DNA from: Bacilli bacterium
Lineage (GTDB): Bacteria > Bacillota_I > Bacilli_A > RF39 > UBA660
Direction of reading: 5' to 3'
NCBI GenBank assembly: GCA_017433415.1
Contig: JAFRHI010000019.1
Location: 4,327-68,326 of the forward strand
Length of the DNA: 64,000 nt
The position numbers and the translations under genes are program-made. Below the pieces are notes generated by a model. It was given only the letters and a program-made list of their open reading frames with translations. It ran no database searches and was not told the origin of the DNA. How positions within the stretch are numbered: position 1 is the stretch's first letter; each line of letters begins with the position of its first letter. Shown piece after piece: positions 6,603 to 11,887 of the stretch.

Positions 6603-6630
6603 AAACTACTATAAGTAGTTTTTTCTTTTG
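6603..6630 (+). terminator. intrinsic terminator (attenuator) between leader ORF and ABC gene
   Basis: AAACTACT-ATA-AGTAGTTT followed by TTTTCTTTT. Confidence 0.6.
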
Positions 6631-6648
6631 GAAAAAAGAGGTGAATTT

Positions 6649-8382
6649 ATGAAAGAGAAAAATAAATATTTCAAAATTATTTGGAAATATTTAAAAGAAG
6701 ACAAACTCAAAGTATTCATCTATCTCATATTAGTTTTACTTTCTTATTTTCCAGCACTATTCGCTGCCTATTTCTGGGGAAAAGCTTTAGAATATTTAAT
6801 AATTAAAAATCTAAAAGTCTTTTCAATATATTTACTGTCTTGGGTTGGAATATATATATTCTGTTATTCAATCCTCCAAATACCTAGAGATAAGCTTTAT
6901 AACTATTTTGAAATTAAATTTATGAAAAATGTTTCCCATGATTTATATCAAAAAATTGATAATCTTCCTGCAATAGCATTTGAAGATATAGGGGTTGGTG
7001 AGTTTATTAATAGACTTTATACTGATACAGATCGTGTTATGGAACTATTAAATAAATTAATTAGATTAATCTGTAAATCTTTCGTTGTCCTTGTTGTTAT
7101 TGGATTAACTTTCTATATTTCTTGGATCATTGGAACAGAGGTATTAGTCTTCTCTGTTGTTATGGGATTTATTTCTTGTAAATTCTTCCCTAAGATTAAA
7201 AAGACCCAAGAAAGAATCAAAAAAGAATCTGATAATTATGTAAAAGTCGCAACAGAAAACATTACAGGTATTCGTGAAATAAAAGCACTTGGAATTAAGA
7301 AAAACATCGAAAATAATATTTTTGAAAATCTTGATAGATTATTTCTTCATGAAAAAGAAATACGTAATTATCAAGTTTGGTATTATTCAATTAATAACTT
7401 TATTTATTTCATTTTACAACTTCTAATTCTTTTCTCAGCTGGATATTATTTTATCCAAGGAAAAATAGTTTATGGTCTATTCATAATGCTAGAATCATAT
7501 ATTTGGAGAATTGATGAAGTAGTTGAAAGTATTTCTGATTTTGGAGTTAGTTATAATAAAGTAACTGTCTCTTTAAAAAGAATTGATGAAATTATTCATA
7601 ATAAATTATATAATGATGAAAAATATGGAAAGAAACAACTAAAAGATGTTAAAGGTAATATTGAATTTAAAAATGTAACTTTTAAATATCGTGAAGATGA
7701 AGATAATACTTTGAATAATTTTAATTTAAAAATTAAACCAAATCAAAAAGTAGCAGTTGTTGGTCGTTCTGGTAATGGTAAATCTACTCTATTTAATCTT
7801 TTACTTCGTTACTTTGATACAAGTAAAGGAAAAATATTAATTGATGGAGAAAATATTAAAGACTTAACAGAAGAATCTTTAAGAAATACTATTTCTATTA
7901 TTAGACAAGCACCATTCCTATTCAATTTATCTATTCTAGATAACTTTAAATATGTAAAAGAAGATGTTACTTTAGATGAAGTTCGAGAAGTATGTAAAAA
8001 AGCATATATTGATGATTATATTATGAGTCTGCCTAATAAATATGATACTATTATTGGTGAAGGTGGAGTAAACTTATCAGGAGGACAAAAGCAAAGATTA
8101 GCTATTGCGAGAACCTTACTTAGAGATACTAAAATCATCCTTTTTGATGAAGCAACTAGTGCCTTAGACAATGAATCACAAGAATACATAAAAAGAACTA
8201 TTGATGATTTAGTAAGTACTCATACTATAATTATAGTCGCTCACAGATTATCAACAATTATTGATGCTGATGTCATAAATGTTGTTGACAAAGGTATGTT
8301 AGCAGCTTCTGGAACACATGAAGAACTATTAAAATCATGTGAAGTATATAAAGGATTATATACACAAGAATCTTCAAATTAA
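6649..8382 (+). CDS. ABC exporter, fused permease/ATPase half-transporter (MsbA / multidrug type)
   Basis: N-terminal 6-TM domain. Walker A GRSGNGKST, signature LSGGQKQR, Walker B ILFDEATSALD. The ATG at 6649 follows AAGAGGTGA; the track start at 6628 falls inside the terminator. Confidence 0.85.
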   Translation: MKEKNKYFKIIWKYLKEDKLKVFIYLILVLLSYFPALFAAYFWGKALEYLIIKNLKVFSIYLLSWVGIYIFCYSILQIPRDKLYNYFEIKFMKNVSHDLYQKIDNLPAIAFEDIGVGEFINRLYTDTDRVMELLNKLIRLICKSFVVLVVIGLTFYISWIIGTEVLVFSVVMGFISCKFFPKIKKTQERIKKESDNYVKVATENITGIREIKALGIKKNIENNIFENLDRLFLHEKEIRNYQVWYYSINNFIYFILQLLILFSAGYYFIQGKIVYGLFIMLESYIWRIDEVVESISDFGVSYNKVTVSLKRIDEIIHNKLYNDEKYGKKQLKDVKGNIEFKNVTFKYREDEDNTLNNFNLKIKPNQKVAVVGRSGNGKSTLFNLLLRYFDTSKGKILIDGENIKDLTEESLRNTISIIRQAPFLFNLSILDNFKYVKEDVTLDEVREVCKKAYIDDYIMSLPNKYDTIIGEGGVNLSGGQKQRLAIARTLLRDTKIILFDEATSALDNESQEYIKRTIDDLVSTHTIIIVAHRLSTIIDADVINVVDKGMLAASGTHEELLKSCEVYKGLYTQESSN

Positions 8383-8412
8383 AAAAAAGAAGGAATATTC
8401 CTTCTTTTTATT
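8383..8412. terminator. bidirectional terminator (ABC gene / nrdG)
   Basis: AAGAAGGAATATTCCTTCTT palindrome flanked by A and T runs. Confidence 0.7.
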
Positions 8413-8413
8413 T

Positions 8414-8983
8414 TTATACATACATTGGTACTTTCTTAAATTTATCTACTTCATTATATTCGTTTTCATCTAGTAATACTACATTACCAGTTTCTAAACT
8501 CTTTTTAACATCAATAAGTCGTTGATTTCTAGAACCTCTAAATAATAGACCTAAATCTCTCTCTTTTAAGATAAATTTACCATCTACTAAAATATCTATT
8601 TTTTCTAAAAATTCTCTATATACAGGTTTCTTTTTTGCCATTTTCATTATTTCCTCAAAAGTAAAACCTGTATAGCACCAAATATTTAGACCTTTTTTAA
8701 TAGCATATTCGGCAATTTTATTGCAAGCATCAACTTGAAGCATCGGATCTCCCCCACTAAAAGTTAAACCATTTTGTCCTTCTAATTCATCAATAGCTTC
8801 ATATACAGCCGATAATGGAATTAATCCACCACCTTCAAAATCCCAAGTTTGTGGATTTTGACAACCCTTGCAATGATGTGAACATCCTTGTGTCCACAAA
8901 ACTGCTCTTAAACCAGGTCCATCAACAATACTATCACTTTGTAAATCTGCAGCTAATCTAATGTAATCACTAGTTTGTTCCAT
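8414..8983 (-). CDS. nrdG: anaerobic ribonucleotide reductase activating protein (radical SAM)
   Basis: CSHHCKGCQNP (CX3CX2C) cluster motif. Position immediately after nrdD. Confidence 0.85.
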   Translation of the reverse strand: MEQTSDYIRLAADLQSDSIVDGPGLRAVLWTQGCSHHCKGCQNPQTWDFEGGGLIPLSAVYEAIDELEGQNGLTFSGGDPMLQVDACNKIAEYAIKKGLNIWCYTGFTFEEIMKMAKKKPVYREFLEKIDILVDGKFILKERDLGLLFRGSRNQRLIDVKKSLETGNVVLLDENEYNEVDKFKKVPMYV

Positions 8984-9122
8984 GAGTTACTCTATCAGAT
9001 ACTTCTTCTTTTTTAGCATTGTTGAAACGATCTAAAGTACCAACTAAATATCCGGTAATTCTTCTAATTCTTTCGAACTTTACTCCTTCTCCAACAACTT
9101 TACTTTTCTTTGCGTTATCCAT
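8970..9122 (-). CDS. 50-aa stand-alone NrdD C-terminal glycyl-radical segment
   Basis: Own translation: MDNAKKSKVVGEGVKFERIRRITGYLVGTLDRFNNAKKEEVSDRVTHGTN. It carries the RRITGYL glycyl-radical motif. Own SD is AAGGGAGGAGAA. Its 3' end overlaps the nrdG start by 14 nt. Confidence 0.7.
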   Translation of the reverse strand: MDNAKKSKVVGEGVKFERIRRITGYLVGTLDRFNNAKKEEVSDRVTHGTN

Positions 9123-9149
9123 TTTCTATTCTCCTCCCTTATATATTCA

Positions 9150-11417
9150 TTAACAACTGCAACAGTCGTATGAATTAATTTTTTCCATCGCTACGCCTTC
9201 ATTTTCGTGGCGACCACATCTTGGGCAAACATCTTTAATTACTCCCACATATCCACAAACAGGATCTCTATCTACAGGATGGTTAATTGCCCCATAACCA
9301 ATATCATTATCATGCATTATTCTAACTACTTTTTCAAATGCATCAACATTATTAACTGTATCTCCATCCAATTCAACATATGAAATATGTCCAGCATTAG
9401 TAAATTTATGATATACCCCTTCAACTTCCATTTTATGCTTTACAGTAGTTCTATAATAAACTGGCACATGGAATGAATTAGTATAATAATCACGATCAGT
9501 TATTCCTTTTAATTTTCCATAGATTGATTTATCAATTCCAACAAATCTTCCTGATAATCCTTCAGCTGGAGTTGCCAAACAAGTGAAGTTTAGATTGTAT
9601 TCTTGACAATACATATCACATCTTTCACGCATATGTTTAATAATTTCAATTCCAAGTTTTTGAGCTTTTTCACTCTCTCCATGATGTTCACCAATTAAAG
9701 CTTTAAGCGTTTCAGCTAAACCTATAAAACCAATTGATAAAGTACCATGTTTTAAAACAGTTCTAAGTTTACTATTTCCAAGCTTTTCACTATTAATCCA
9801 AACATGTGAACCAATTAAGAATTTGAAATTAGCTCTAGTCTTAGAACATTGACATTCAAATCTTTGTAATAATTGATTCTTAACTAAATCCATTGTTGCA
9901 TCCAACTCTTCATAAAAGCCCTTCATATCGGCTTTCTTTCTTTCACCAAGAGCAATACCATGTTTAATACCAATTCTTGGAAGATTGATTGAAGTAAAAC
10001 TTAAATTTCCTCTTCCAGGAGTAACTGAAGGTCCACAAACATTAGCAAGTACTCTTGTACGACATCCCATATATCCAACTTCAGTAGTATAATCACCATC
10101 TACTAAGAATTGTTTGTTAAAACTTGAATCTAAGAATGAAAAGTTAGGGAATAATCTTTTAGCAGAAACTCTACAAGCTAATCTAAATAAATCATAACTT
10201 GGATCTCCAGGATTATAATTAATACCTTCTTTTACCTTAAAGATTGATATAGGGAATATTGGAGTTTCTCCATGCCCTAATCCACTATCAGTTGCAAGTA
10301 AGAAATTCTTAATAACCATTCTTCCTTCAGGTGAAGTATCAGTTCCAAAATTAACTGATGAAAATGGTACTTGTGCCCCAGCTCTAGAGTGCATTGTATT
10401 TAAATTATGAATAAATGCTTCCATTGCTTGGAATGTTTGTCTATCGGTCTTATTAAGAGCATTAGTATAAGCTACATTAAATATCTCTTTAACTTTCTCA
10501 CTCTTCATAAATTCAGAAAACACTTCTAAATCAAATTCAATAGTATTTAATTTATCAATAACTTCAATTACATTATCAAAATTAATATATTCATCAAAGC
10601 CCTCAAATTTAAGTAAATTAGATAATTCTTGCTTAAATTCCTTTTTAAATGTCTTTAAAACACCAGGAGCCATATAATAATCAAATGCTGGAATACTTTG
10701 ACCACCATGTTGTTCATTTTGATTTGACTGTATTGCTATAGCAGCAAGTGCTGTATATGAAGCAATAGAGTTTGGTGTTCTTAAAAATCCATGTCCAGTT
10801 GAAAAACCATTCTTAAACAATTTATTTAAATCAATTTGTGTACATGTTGTTGTACCCATTGCCCAGAAATCCAAGTCATGAATATGAATTAATCCTTCAT
10901 CATGAGCTCTAGCATACTTATTATCCATTAAATAGGCTTTAGCAAATTCCTTTGATACTGTAGAACCAAAATGTAACATTGTTCCCATTGGTCCATCACC
11001 ATCAACATTAGCATTTTCTCTTTTAGAGTTCTCCTCAGATGCACTTTTTAATCCTAAAGATTCAATTGCTTTAACGAATTTATGCTGTTGCTTAACAACA
11101 AATGCTTCACGTGATGCTGTTCTTCTATCACGATATCCTTTATATGATTCATATACTTCCTCATATTTTTGCTTTTTCAAAATATCTTCAATAATATCTT
11201 GAACATCTTCAACACCAATAGTCTTACGATCTTGATAATTCTTAGCAATATAGTCTATTACTTTTTCCTTTACTTTATTAACATTTTTTTCATCATAATC
11301 TTCATATACACTATCGAACCCCTTTTTTATAGCAAGAGCAACTTTAGTCTCATTAAAAGCAACTCTTTGTCCACTTCTTTTTACAACCACAAGGTCATTT
11401 AACACATCTTTTTCCAT
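9150..11417 (-). CDS. nrdD: anaerobic ribonucleoside-triphosphate reductase large chain lacking the glycyl-radical tail
   Basis: N-terminal ATP-cone (VVKRSGQRVAFNETK). Class III RNR core. C-terminal Zn site is DPVCGY...CPRCG, then ...MEKINSYDCCSC and a stop, with no G-radical motif in this frame. Confidence 0.85.
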   Translation of the reverse strand: MEKDVLNDLVVVKRSGQRVAFNETKVALAIKKGFDSVYEDYDEKNVNKVKEKVIDYIAKNYQDRKTIGVEDVQDIIEDILKKQKYEEVYESYKGYRDRRTASREAFVVKQQHKFVKAIESLGLKSASEENSKRENANVDGDGPMGTMLHFGSTVSKEFAKAYLMDNKYARAHDEGLIHIHDLDFWAMGTTTCTQIDLNKLFKNGFSTGHGFLRTPNSIASYTALAAIAIQSNQNEQHGGQSIPAFDYYMAPGVLKTFKKEFKQELSNLLKFEGFDEYINFDNVIEVIDKLNTIEFDLEVFSEFMKSEKVKEIFNVAYTNALNKTDRQTFQAMEAFIHNLNTMHSRAGAQVPFSSVNFGTDTSPEGRMVIKNFLLATDSGLGHGETPIFPISIFKVKEGINYNPGDPSYDLFRLACRVSAKRLFPNFSFLDSSFNKQFLVDGDYTTEVGYMGCRTRVLANVCGPSVTPGRGNLSFTSINLPRIGIKHGIALGERKKADMKGFYEELDATMDLVKNQLLQRFECQCSKTRANFKFLIGSHVWINSEKLGNSKLRTVLKHGTLSIGFIGLAETLKALIGEHHGESEKAQKLGIEIIKHMRERCDMYCQEYNLNFTCLATPAEGLSGRFVGIDKSIYGKLKGITDRDYYTNSFHVPVYYRTTVKHKMEVEGVYHKFTNAGHISYVELDGDTVNNVDAFEKVVRIMHDNDIGYGAINHPVDRDPVCGYVGVIKDVCPRCGRHENEGVAMEKINSYDCCSC

Positions 11418-11692
11418 ATATTACCTCCATGTATTTTTGATCTTTTATAACCAAATTTATCTTACTATATCCAGAATAAATACGCAATATTTTTTTTATC
11501 TATTTTTTTAATTTTATCTTTTTAATGTAAATATCATTTTTAAAAAAACAGTAAAAAAAAACATAAGTCGTTATATATCAACAAATAAGAATTTTAACCC
11601 CCTATTTTTTATTAACATTTAATTTGTACATAAAACTTATCCCTAGCAAATTTATTAAATTATATAAAAAAAGGAAGTATCTCTACTTCCTT

Positions 11693-11887
11693 TTATTTAA
11701 CAATATGTCCTTCATTATCAAGTTGTTCATTTGCCTTTATTTCTTCAAAATCACTGTAGAACATTTCATCAAGAGCTGCTTTTTCTTCTTCTCCATAAAT
11801 AAGATCTCTAGCCATTTCTTCCCCAACTTCTTGTGGAACACCACCTACTACTTGTTCTAAATCCTCTTCAAATATCTCATCTCTCAT
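11693..11887 (-). CDS. 64-aa acidic peptide with double-glycine-type leader
   Basis: MRDEIFEEDLEQVVGG / VPQEV... Hydrophobic residues at -4, -7 and -12 and an acidic residue at -8 fit the GG-leader pattern. A terminator hairpin lies at about 11668-11697. Confidence 0.4.
   Translation of the reverse strand: MRDEIFEEDLEQVVGGVPQEVGEEMARDLIYGEEEKAALDEMFYSDFEEIKANEQLDNEGHIVK

What the first reader, a model, noticed from the sequence alone, without database searches (positions are those of the whole stretch)
8970..9200. Genes-in-pieces class III ribonucleotide reductase: glycyl-radical peptide encoded as a separate 50-aa ORF
**Seen in the sequence**
- The 755-aa NrdD ORF ends right after the Zn-ribbon (CPRCGRHENEGVAMEKINSYDCCSC, then a stop).
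- The essential radical motif RRITGYL lies in a separate ORF, MDNAKKSKVVGEGVKFERIRRITGYLVG...
- That ORF has its own strong SD (AAGGGAGGAGAA) and overlaps nrdG.
- GAAGGCGTA before the break and GAAGGAGTA at the resumption look like a duplicated junction around an inserted segment of about 110 nt.

**Interpretation**
- Split but functional RNRs are known: Aeromonas phage Aeh1 nrdA is split by a homing endonuclease.
- Stand-alone glycyl-radical spare parts exist for pyruvate formate-lyase (GrcA/YfiD).
- I am not aware of a two-piece NrdD.
Basis: partly seen in the sequence, partly recalled or inferred. Interest (0 to 1): 0.65.

Follow-up and report, generated by a model that had tools for sequence, protein, structure and literature searches.

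The report
Two-piece anaerobic ribonucleotide reductase
In this gut bacterium the oxygen-sensitive enzyme that makes DNA building blocks is encoded in two genes, with its radical-carrying loop on a separate 50-residue protein. This layout is conserved and under selection in many anaerobes, and I found no paper describing it.

Summary
On the minus strand, a 755-aa NrdD (11417..9150) ends 13 residues after its Zn ribbon. A 27-nt gap carries AAGGGAGGAG. A 50-aa ORF (9122..8970) carries RIRRITG24YL and overlaps nrdG.

It is not an artefact or a pseudogene:
- Three DNA runs give identical contigs across the junction, and a metatranscriptome holds both ORFs without joints.
- All 12 same-genus genomes with this paralogue have stop, SD and ATG, at frame offset 0 or +1. 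That rules out readthrough or hopping.
- dN/dS of the peptide is 0.13.
- In 25 split genomes from 20 genera, none has a class I or II RNR, and in about 20 the split NrdD is the only NrdD.

The same layout occurs in Clostridia, Fibrobacter, Succinivibrio dextrinosolvens DSM 3072 and Bilophila wadsworthia ATCC 49260.

One-chain relatives with two tandem glycyl segments, and long body tails that resemble the peptide, point to tandem duplication followed by fission.

Best reading: an obligate two-subunit class III RNR. The peptide receives the radical from NrdG and docks non-covalently. Docking is inferred, because AlphaFold did not resolve it.

A second, intact NrdD exists in this genome.

The parts
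9150..11417 (-). nrdD body (large subunit), 755 aa including the TAA stop. It has an ATP-cone (aa 10-100), an NRDD barrel with the finger-loop Cys in YMGCRTRV, and a Zn ribbon. It has no glycyl-radical motif.
   Evidence: ORF. Pfam PF03477 and PF13597 positions 1-532 of 562. NF005497 scores 988 bits against a cut-off of 764. Aligns to P. copri NrdD 8P23 residues 8-706.
9216..9266 (-). Zn-ribbon of the glycyl radical domain (D718-P-V-C721 ... C731-P-R-C734). It stays on the body.
   Evidence: Alignment to 8P23 '...RCLDCGY...VCPKCGSH'. Invariant among relatives. dN/dS 0.07.
9192..9200 (-). Junction copy 1: GAAGGCGTA = E740-G-V742, the last residues shared with one-chain relatives.
   Evidence: One-chain relatives read ...E(D/E)GV(K/L)FERIRR.
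9153..9191 (-). Body tail AMEKINSYDCCSC (13 aa). It is lineage-specific and is probably a truncated, decayed copy of the glycyl-radical segment.
   Evidence: Conserved pattern x[MVI]EK[IV]N..[DE].C.. in 12 same-genus genomes, dN/dS 0.24. Long tails in other lineages are significantly similar to their own peptide. The window's own tail is not (z 1.3).
9123..9152 (-). Stop TAA (9152..9150) plus a 27-nt spacer. The spacer holds in-frame TGA (9149..9147) and TAG (9128..9126) and the Shine-Dalgarno AAGGGAGGAG (9140..9131).
   Evidence: In relatives the spacer is 14-39 nt, always with GGAG/GAGG, at frame offsets 0, +1 and +2.
8970..9122 (-). Glycyl-radical peptide gene (small subunit), 50 aa. It has a Lys-rich leader, junction copy 2 G-E-G-V (GAAGGAGTA at 9089..9081), RIRRITG24YL (Gly24 at 9053..9051) and a C-terminal helix DRFNNAKKEEVSDRVTH.
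   Evidence: Pfam NRDD positions 532-562 at 32.4 bits, above the 26.2 cut-off. NF005497 positions 710-745. Aligns to 8P23 residues 708-738. dN/dS 0.13 at dS 0.89. At least 7990 clusters of 28-87 aa proteins resemble it. Transcribed.
8414..8983 (-). nrdG activase (189 aa, radical SAM). Its start overlaps the peptide ORF by 14 nt.
   Evidence: TIGR02491 NrdG scores 142 bits against a cut-off of 126. PF13353.
8384..8409 (.). Bidirectional terminator-like hairpin that closes the three-gene operon and the convergent ABC-transporter gene.
11669..11694 (-). Terminator-like hairpin of the upstream gene. It marks the 5' boundary of the nrdD-peptide-nrdG operon region.

Best explanation
This is a working class III (anaerobic) ribonucleotide reductase built from two polypeptides, plus its activase, all from one operon.

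The 755-aa body carries the ATP-cone, the catalytic barrel with the thiyl-radical cysteine, and the Zn ribbon. The 50-aa peptide carries the radical glycine (Gly24 in RIRRITGYL) and the C-terminal helix.

The break lies inside the glycyl radical domain, between the Zn ribbon and the buried Gly loop. This corresponds to residues 706/708 of P. copri NrdD.

Inferred mechanism:
1. NrdG abstracts hydrogen from Gly24 of the peptide, either free or already bound.
2. The peptide's Gly loop inserts into the barrel next to the finger-loop cysteine, held without a covalent link.
3. Catalysis then proceeds as in one-chain NrdD.

Origin: a tandem duplication of the glycyl-radical segment, then decay of the upstream copy (now the body's tail), then gain of stop, SD and ATG.

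Shown here: the gene layout, its conservation, selection on it, its transcription, and its status as the sole RNR in relatives. Inferred: non-covalent assembly, activation of the peptide by NrdG, and any advantage such as cheap replacement after O2 cleavage.
For: - Sequence anatomy and family matches split cleanly at model position about 532 (Pfam) or 710-715 (NF005497).
- Three DNA runs have contigs identical across the junction. A bovine-gut metatranscriptome has contigs over 8565-9074 and 9133-9276 with no joints.
- All 12 same-genus genomes carrying this paralogue (66-95% identical) keep a stop, a 19-36 nt gap, an SD, an ATG and a 49-53 aa peptide.
- In an order-wide sample, 202 of 401 genomes have the peptide. 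Of about 150 listed matches, 136 lie in 51-96 aa open frames and 14 in about 790-aa frames.
- Ten further genera were read in detail. All three frame offsets occur, and an SD is always present.
- dN/dS is 0.13 for the peptide core and 0.07 for the Zn ribbon, at dS of about 0.9-1.0.
- Among 25 split genomes from 20 genera, 0 of 26 genomes searched (those 25 plus this one) have PF02867 (class I/II). About 20 have no other NrdD, including the single-contig G277.
- The same layout is found in Clostridia, Fibrobacter and Succinivibrionaceae loci; in Desulfovibrio/Bilophila loci of that scan the peptide was mostly flagged without a nearby body, and the Bilophila body was found.
- It is also found in the cultured strains S. 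dextrinosolvens DSM 3072, B. wadsworthia ATCC 49260 and Bacterium 1XD42-1.
- The body passes the NF005497 equivalog cut-off and keeps MGCRTRV.
- Terminator-like hairpins flank the three genes, and none lies between them.
- The GRD of one-chain P. copri NrdD is a highly mobile unit (PMC11226230).
Against: - No protein-level evidence exists. Neither the peptide, nor the complex, nor a radical on it has been observed.
- AlphaFold2 was run on the two ORFs joined through their natural in-frame spacer. The body was confident, but residues 747-798 (tail, spacer, leader and Gly loop) scored below pLDDT 50. A one-chain relative with the same alignment gave 55-77 and a beta-hairpin for that region. Docking is therefore not supported by modelling, though that single-chain test is a poor one.
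- This genome also has an intact E. coli-like NrdD/NrdG pair on another contig. The split enzyme is therefore not demonstrably essential here, and only 12 of 25 same-genus genomes carry it.
- The relatives are small-genome MAGs, 90-98% complete, and might also salvage deoxynucleosides.
Confidence: 0.82

Rival explanations
1. Decaying duplicate. Because the genome has an intact second nrdD, this copy was broken by an insertion or duplication and is on its way to loss. The small ORF would be a leftover.
For: - A second intact NrdD/NrdG pair sits on G000 contig C22.
- The split paralogue is present in only 12 of 25 same-genus genomes.
Against: - There is no other lesion in 755 + 50 + 189 codons.
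- The layout is kept in every carrier, at up to 34% protein divergence within the genus and across phyla.
- dN/dS is 0.13 for the peptide.
- SD and ATG are always present.
- The split enzyme is the sole RNR in about 20 of 25 genomes of sister genera.
- Both ORFs are transcribed.
Confidence: 0.04
2. Recoding. The ribosome reads through, frameshifts, or hops (as in T4 gene 60) from GGC-GTA to GGA-GTA, 111 nt on, to make a normal one-chain NrdD.
For: - In this genome the two ORFs are in frame.
- The junction EGV codons are duplicated 111 nt apart. A GTA-to-GTA hop would restore exactly the canonical ...NEGVKFERIRR sequence.
Against: - Three different stop codons lie between the ORFs.
- Frame offset is 0 in 7 and +1 in 5 of the same-genus genomes, and +2 elsewhere. 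Gap length varies from 14 to 39 nt and more.
- The take-off and landing codons do not match in several relatives: GTT/GTA, GTA/GTT, and ATT/GAA in G019.
- No stop follows the putative take-off site. The frame runs on for 13 conserved codons.
- A strong SD and an ATG are always present.
- The metatranscriptome contigs show no joint.
Confidence: 0.02
3. The peptide is mainly a spare part or regulator for another enzyme, such as the one-chain NrdD on C22. The truncated body would not be a reductase on its own account.
For: - Free peptide genes without a body nearby are common. B. wadsworthia has 5 extra copies.
- 77 of the 80 best viral-contig loci are free peptides.
- About 10 Bacilli genomes have a free 92-123 aa frame beside a one-chain NrdD.
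Against: - The peptide's sequence (RIRRITGYLVGTLDRFNN) is that of the body's own subfamily, NF005497. The C22 paralogue has RRTCGYIGSNFW.
- Body, peptide and nrdG are always adjacent and co-conserved.
- In most sister genera there is no other NrdD to serve.
- The body keeps all catalytic hallmarks.
Confidence: 0.06
4. Assembly or sequencing artefact at 9100-9200.
For: None found. The genome is a 31-contig metagenome-type assembly.
Against: - Contigs are identical in three DNA runs from two studies, at word depth up to 29.
- The same layout appears in hundreds of independent assemblies and in isolate genomes.
Confidence: 0.005

Closest known systems
One-chain class III RNR NrdD with activase NrdG (P. 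copri NrdD PDB 8P23; phage T4 1H78; E. coli)
   Same: - Same fold and family, with E 5e-180 to 8P23.
- ATP-cone, finger-loop Cys, Zn ribbon and RxxGY radical motif are all present.
- The cognate NrdG is adjacent.
- The chemistry is presumably the same.
   Different: The chain is cut inside the glycyl radical domain, so the radical glycine sits on a separate 50-aa gene product. The body carries a 13-aa extra tail and the peptide a roughly 10-aa Lys-rich leader.
GrcA/YfiD and T4 Y06I, autonomous glycyl radical cofactors ('spare parts') for pyruvate formate-lyase
   Same: It is a small stand-alone protein carrying a glycyl-radical motif that must work in trans with a large barrel protein. Andorfer et al. 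2021 (PMC8683613) state that only these two are validated and that spare parts for other GREs are possible.
   Different: - GrcA is PFL-type (PF01228), about 127 aa, encoded away from pflB, and it backs up an enzyme that has its own glycine.
- Here the peptide is NrdD-type (PF13597 C-terminus only), 50 aa, and sits in the operon.
- In this lineage it is the only source of the radical glycine.
Split class II RNR NrdJa/NrdJb (Pseudomonas aeruginosa; Crona et al. 2015, cited in PMC9669993)
   Same: It is an RNR catalytic subunit encoded as two consecutive genes, with the C-terminal Zn-finger or redox module separated from the barrel.
   Different: - It belongs to a different class (B12-dependent, no glycyl radical).
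- The cut point is different.
- NrdJb is a folded domain of a few hundred residues, not a 50-aa radical carrier.
Aeromonas phage Aeh1 nrdA split by a homing endonuclease gene (from memory, not checked here)
   Same: It is a functional RNR large subunit in two pieces.
   Different: That is a class I enzyme, split by a mobile endonuclease gene. Here no mobile gene or foreign DNA lies between the pieces, only 27 nt.

Membership tests
Class III RNR catalytic subunit NrdD (PF13597 / NF005497) | RNR/GRE ten-stranded barrel with the finger-loop cysteine | tested here: met
   PF13597 positions 1-532, E 1e-181. NF005497 scores 988 bits against a cut-off of 764. MGCRTRV aligns with 8P23.
Class III RNR catalytic subunit NrdD (PF13597 / NF005497) | C-terminal Zn ribbon preceding the radical loop | tested here: met
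   D718/C721...C731/C734 align to the 8P23 ribbon. The first ligand position is Asp here and in one-chain relatives of the clade. Metal binding was not tested.
Class III RNR catalytic subunit NrdD (PF13597 / NF005497) | Radical glycine (RxxGY) on the same polypeptide as the barrel | tested here: not met
   The body ends 13 aa after the ribbon and has no Gly motif. The motif is on the separate 50-aa ORF.
Class III RNR catalytic subunit NrdD (PF13597 / NF005497) | Adjacent cognate activase NrdG (radical SAM) | tested here: met
   TIGR02491 scores 142 bits against a cut-off of 126, and the gene overlaps the peptide ORF.
Class III RNR catalytic subunit NrdD (PF13597 / NF005497) | Glycyl radical formation and NTP reduction | not testable with these tools
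   Needs anaerobic biochemistry and EPR.
Autonomous glycyl radical cofactor GrcA/YfiD (PF01228 type) | Homology to the PFL C-terminal glycyl radical domain | tested here: not met
   The peptide hits only the NRDD C-terminus and gives no PF01228 hit.
Autonomous glycyl radical cofactor GrcA/YfiD (PF01228 type) | Stand-alone small protein that supplies a radical glycine in trans to a large GRE | tested here: inconclusive
   The gene layout fits and free copies exist on phage contigs. Trans function has not been shown.
Programmed translational bypass (T4 gene 60 type) | Matched take-off and landing codons, a stop directly after take-off, and a conserved coding gap read as one chain | tested here: not met
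   Codons are unmatched in several relatives, frame and gap vary, and SD plus ATG are always present.
Intein, split intein or intron | A self-splicing element between the pieces | tested here: not met
   Only 27 nt separate the ORFs. Tail plus leader total about 27 aa, with no intein blocks. No joints were seen in RNA contigs.

The most novel reading that the evidence does not exclude
NrdD-type glycyl-radical peptides may form an unrecognised family of exchangeable 'radical cartridges'.

In split systems like this one, the cartridge is the obligatory second subunit of class III RNR. That would make it the first glycyl radical enzyme whose radical site is on a separate, replaceable polypeptide by design.

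Extra free copies sit in host genomes (5 in B. wadsworthia) and on phage contigs (77 of the 80 best IMG/VR loci). They would reload host NrdD bodies after oxygen cleavage or during infection. This would be the NrdD counterpart of GrcA/Y06I, which the field has only speculated about.
Probability: 0.4. Interest if true: 0.9.

Novelty: new variant of a known kind. Interest (0 to 1): 0.78.

Why it matters
All characterised glycyl radical enzymes carry the radical glycine on the catalytic chain. Only PFL has a validated trans-acting spare part, and the 2021 JBC paper (PMC8683613) leaves open whether other GREs have one.

A class III RNR whose radical loop is a separate 6-kDa subunit would change three things:
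- how activation by NrdG is pictured, since a free peptide substrate would replace a domain that must flip out of the barrel;
- how oxygen damage is repaired;
- how genomes are annotated. Bodies without the motif look truncated, and the 50-aa gene is easily missed or left unnamed.

The layout is the only RNR in many small-genome gut and rumen Bacilli. It also occurs in cultivable organisms (Bilophila wadsworthia, Succinivibrio dextrinosolvens), so it can be tested directly.

A minimal 50-residue radical carrier would also be a convenient tool for EPR and activase studies.

Tried and rejected
- **AlphaFold2 of body and peptide as one chain.** I joined them through the natural in-frame spacer, with stops read as Gly. 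The body was confident, but the Gly loop, tail and leader scored below pLDDT 50. A one-chain control gave 55-77. The result is inconclusive, and no multimer tool was available.
- **Tail cysteines (CCSC) as a fourth Zn ligand.** Rejected. One-chain relatives share the Asp-for-Cys ribbon, and some split relatives have no tail Cys (G277).
- **Tail Ser749 (INSY against ITGY) as a non-canonical seryl radical site, as in PMC11528403.** Rejected. That position is S, C, G, H or T among the closest relatives.
- **Similarity of the window's own 13-aa tail to the Gly segment.** Not significant (z 1.3). The duplication origin rests on long-tail relatives and on doubly-motifed one-chain forms.
- **NrdG differences between split and one-chain systems.** No systematic length difference was found.
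- **A single origin of the split.** Not supported. The tree needs 13 changes, at least 6 of them forced by well-supported branches. Sampling was biased and the tree was made with FastTree, so fission and re-fusion cannot be told apart.
- **Literature.** Three full-text searches and eight papers read for 'split', 'spare part' and similar terms gave no split NrdD. Subscription-only papers were not searched.
Full report
**What is in the window**

All features lie on the minus strand.
- A 755-aa ORF (11417..9150) matches NrdD from its ATP-cone to its Zn ribbon. Pfam NRDD covers positions 1-532 of 562. NCBIfam NF005497 covers 4-715 of 746 at 988 bits, above the equivalog cut-off of 764.
- The ORF ends ...CPRCGRHENEGVAMEKINSYDCCSC-TAA.
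- A 27-nt spacer follows, with AAGGGAGGAG placed 8 nt before an ATG.
- A 50-aa ORF (9122..8970) reads MDNAKKSKVVGEGVKFERIRRITGYLVGTLDRFNNAKKEEVSDRVTHGTN. It matches the last 31-36 positions of the same models.
- The 50-aa ORF overlaps nrdG (8983..8414; TIGR02491 at 142 bits) by 14 nt.
- GAAGGCGTA and GAAGGAGTA lie 111 nt apart. The two ORFs therefore share a frame here, but TAA, TGA and TAG lie between them.
- Terminator-like hairpins flank the three genes, and none lies inside.

Against P. copri NrdD (PDB 8P23), the body aligns to residues 8-706 and the peptide to 708-738. In that enzyme, residues 676-739 form the glycyl radical domain: a Zn site, then the buried Gly711 loop, then a C-terminal tail (PMC11226230). 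The cut is therefore inside that domain, between the ribbon and the loop.

**It is real**

- Logan contigs from three DNA runs in two studies cover the junction with no differences, at word depths 29, 10.6 and 4.7.
- A bovine-gut metatranscriptome run has contigs over 8565-9074 (nrdG and most of the small ORF) and 9133-9276 (body end, stops, SD). No joints were seen.

**It is conserved and selected**

- The window's genome (1.21 Mb, 31 contigs) belongs to a genus in which 12 of 25 genomes carry this paralogue, at 66-95% identity.
- All 12 have a stop, a 19-36 nt gap, GGAGG or GAGG, an ATG, and a 49-53 aa peptide. Seven are at frame offset 0 and five at +1.
- Two outgroups, one from the same order and one from the same class, are one-chain: ...CPGCNRTEEDGVLFERIRRITGYL.
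- Pairwise Nei-Gojobori dN/dS is 0.13 for the 36-codon peptide core, 0.07 for the ribbon and 0.24 for the tail, at dS of about 0.9-1.3.
- In an even sample of 401 genomes of the order, 202 have the peptide. Of about 150 listed matches, 136 lie in 51-96 aa open frames and 14 in about 790-aa frames.
- Ten further genera were read in detail. They show all three frame offsets and a strong SD every time.
- The 50-aa query found at least 7990 clusters of 28-87 aa proteins in the 5.8-billion-protein set, with the cap reached. Some lie on contigs up to 362 kb with the same three-gene layout.

**It must work**

I searched 25 split-type genomes from 20 genera, plus this one.
- None has a class I or II large subunit (PF02867, 0 of 26). 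The control genomes did give hits.
- About 20 have no NrdD other than the split one, including a single-contig genome.
- In this window's own genus, an intact E. coli-like NrdD/NrdG pair usually co-occurs. Here it sits on contig C22: 729 aa, RRTCGYIG, about 31% identical.

**Breadth**

A scan of species-representative genomes returned 80 loci.
- About 55 are split, from Bacilli, Oscillospiraceae, Ruminococcus, Acutalibacteraceae, Mogibacterium and Anaerovoracaceae, Fibrobacter, Succinivibrionaceae and one Desulfovibrio locus.
- 6 are one-chain.
- About 19 are peptides with no body close by.

Whole-genome searches gave the following.
- S. dextrinosolvens DSM 3072 has one body with an adjacent peptide, plus one extra peptide.
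- B. wadsworthia ATCC 49260 has one body, a peptide 430 nt downstream, and five more copies.
- A Fibrobacter MAG and the isolate Bacterium 1XD42-1 each have just the pair.

A FastTree of 133 body sequences needs 13 changes between split and one-chain. At least 6 of these are forced by well-supported branches. The window sits in an all-split Bacilli clade of 23 rows.

**Origin**

One-chain proteins found with the C-terminal region as query fall into three kinds.
- Forms with two complete tandem glycyl segments: P0243, P0244 and P0246.
- A C. difficile record with an exact tandem repeat: P0242.
- Forms with a tail-like insert before GEGV.FERIRR: P0245 and P0247.

In long-tail lineages the body tail resembles its own peptide beyond the shared GEGV. 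In Bilophila, GEGV-DIEVLRKIKGYIRDV...RLEAEDKM compares with GEGV-KFERIRRITGYLVGT...RAEVEDRV at z 5.4, with 0 of 2000 shuffles as good. L089 gives z 5.7 and L072 gives z 4.5. The window's own 13-aa tail is too short to show this (z 1.3).

The likely path is tandem duplication, then decay or truncation of copy 1, then fission.

**Mechanism**

What is shown is the genetic architecture and its maintenance by selection. Three steps are inferred:
1. The peptide is the substrate of NrdG.
2. Its Gly loop enters the barrel next to the MGCRTRV cysteine.
3. It stays there without a covalent link.

AlphaFold2 on the joined chain left residues 747-798 below pLDDT 50. A one-chain relative with the same alignment gave 55-77 with a beta-hairpin there. 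Modelling therefore neither supports nor excludes docking.

The high mobility of the GRD in P. copri NrdD and the GrcA precedent make trans assembly plausible.

**Rivals**

- Readthrough or hopping fails on variable frames and gaps, on unmatched junction codons, and on the ever-present SD and ATG.
- A pseudogene fails on conservation and dN/dS.
- A spare part for the other NrdD fails on subfamily match, on strict adjacency, and on the absence of any other NrdD in most sister genera.
- An artefact fails on the reads.

**Phages**

- In IMG/VR, 77 of the 80 best loci (out of at least 544) are free 47-149 aa frames with the NrdD-type motif. None has an NrdD body within 3 kb.
- Two of these contigs have the same lengths as two of the Bilophila contigs that carry free peptide copies (8311 and 17371 nt), so they are probably the same records.
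- Eggerthella phage EL753P1 has a motif-less NrdD and a downstream small ORF, which is frameshifted in the record.
- These findings agree with earlier notes of this scan, which I treated as leads and re-tested.

**Literature**

I found the split class II NrdJa/NrdJb and the PFL spare parts. I found no split NrdD, and a June 2026 GRE review does not mention one either.

**Verdict**

This is a new variant of a known enzyme kind. It is widespread and apparently undescribed, and its assembly mechanism is still inferred.

Noticed in passing
G000 contig C22, locus L001 1162-3351 and 3351-3845: A second, intact class III RNR in the same genome. NrdD is 729 aa (E. coli-like, RRTCGYIG, about 31% identical to the split one). 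Its own NrdG is 164 aa, and a dUTPase-like gene follows. This paralogue is present in nearly all genomes of the genus.
   Followed up: partly
Proteins P0243, P0244, P0246: One-chain NrdDs with two complete tandem glycyl-radical segments, each FERIRRITGYLVGT...DRVKH. Whether both glycines can be activated is unknown.
   Followed up: no
Protein P0242 (NCBI, Clostridioides difficile, 853 aa): An exact tandem repeat of the last roughly 70 residues (DLGIGYGSINHPVDRDP...AKKAEVR twice). It is either a very recent duplication or an assembly error in that record.
   Followed up: no
G812 (Bilophila wadsworthia ATCC 49260) contigs C115, C75, C33, C28, C15; L097, L141, L142: Five extra free copies of the NrdD-type glycyl-radical peptide, besides the one next to the single nrdD body. 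At least one lies beside a DNA-methyltransferase-like gene and a replication-like gene, which looks like a prophage. Two of these contigs have the same lengths (8311 and 17371 nt) as two IMG/VR viral contigs.
   Followed up: partly
IMG/VR loci L143-L222: 77 of the 80 best viral-contig matches are free 47-149 aa frames with the NrdD glycyl motif. None has an NrdD body within 3 kb, and most have no NrdG.
   Followed up: partly
L138 (Eggerthella phage EL753P1, OP172808.1 6964-7172): The phage NrdD ends ...CPQCHRKEFEAVPEEYRDMVDEIRKSGMR without a Gly motif. A downstream SD-led small ORF carries GEGVGFERIRRI, but the record has a 5-nt repeat (TGACC) that breaks the frame just before TGYL.
   Followed up: partly
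L114, L115, L124 (Ruminococcus MAGs): Free 98-aa proteins. An unmatched N-terminal region of about 50 aa is fused to FERIRRITGYLVGTLDRFNNAKRAEVEDRVKH. Pfam sees only the NRDD C-terminus.
   Followed up: partly
Genomes of family f12 (single-contig, about 1-1.5 Mb): Open frames of about 170 aa, each with one in-frame TGA and a weak match (51-60% identity) to the peptide's Gly segment. These are probably Mycoplasma-like genomes that read TGA as Trp. The identity of the protein was not examined.
   Followed up: no
G102 contig C10 17478-19298 and 21016-22845: A split NrdD and an intact E. coli-like NrdD lie within 2 kb of each other in one genome of a sister genus.
   Followed up: no
window 6628-8382 (+) and 8384-8409: A convergent ABC-transporter ATPase/permease gene (584 aa) shares one bidirectional terminator-like hairpin with the nrdD-peptide-nrdG operon.
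   Followed up: no
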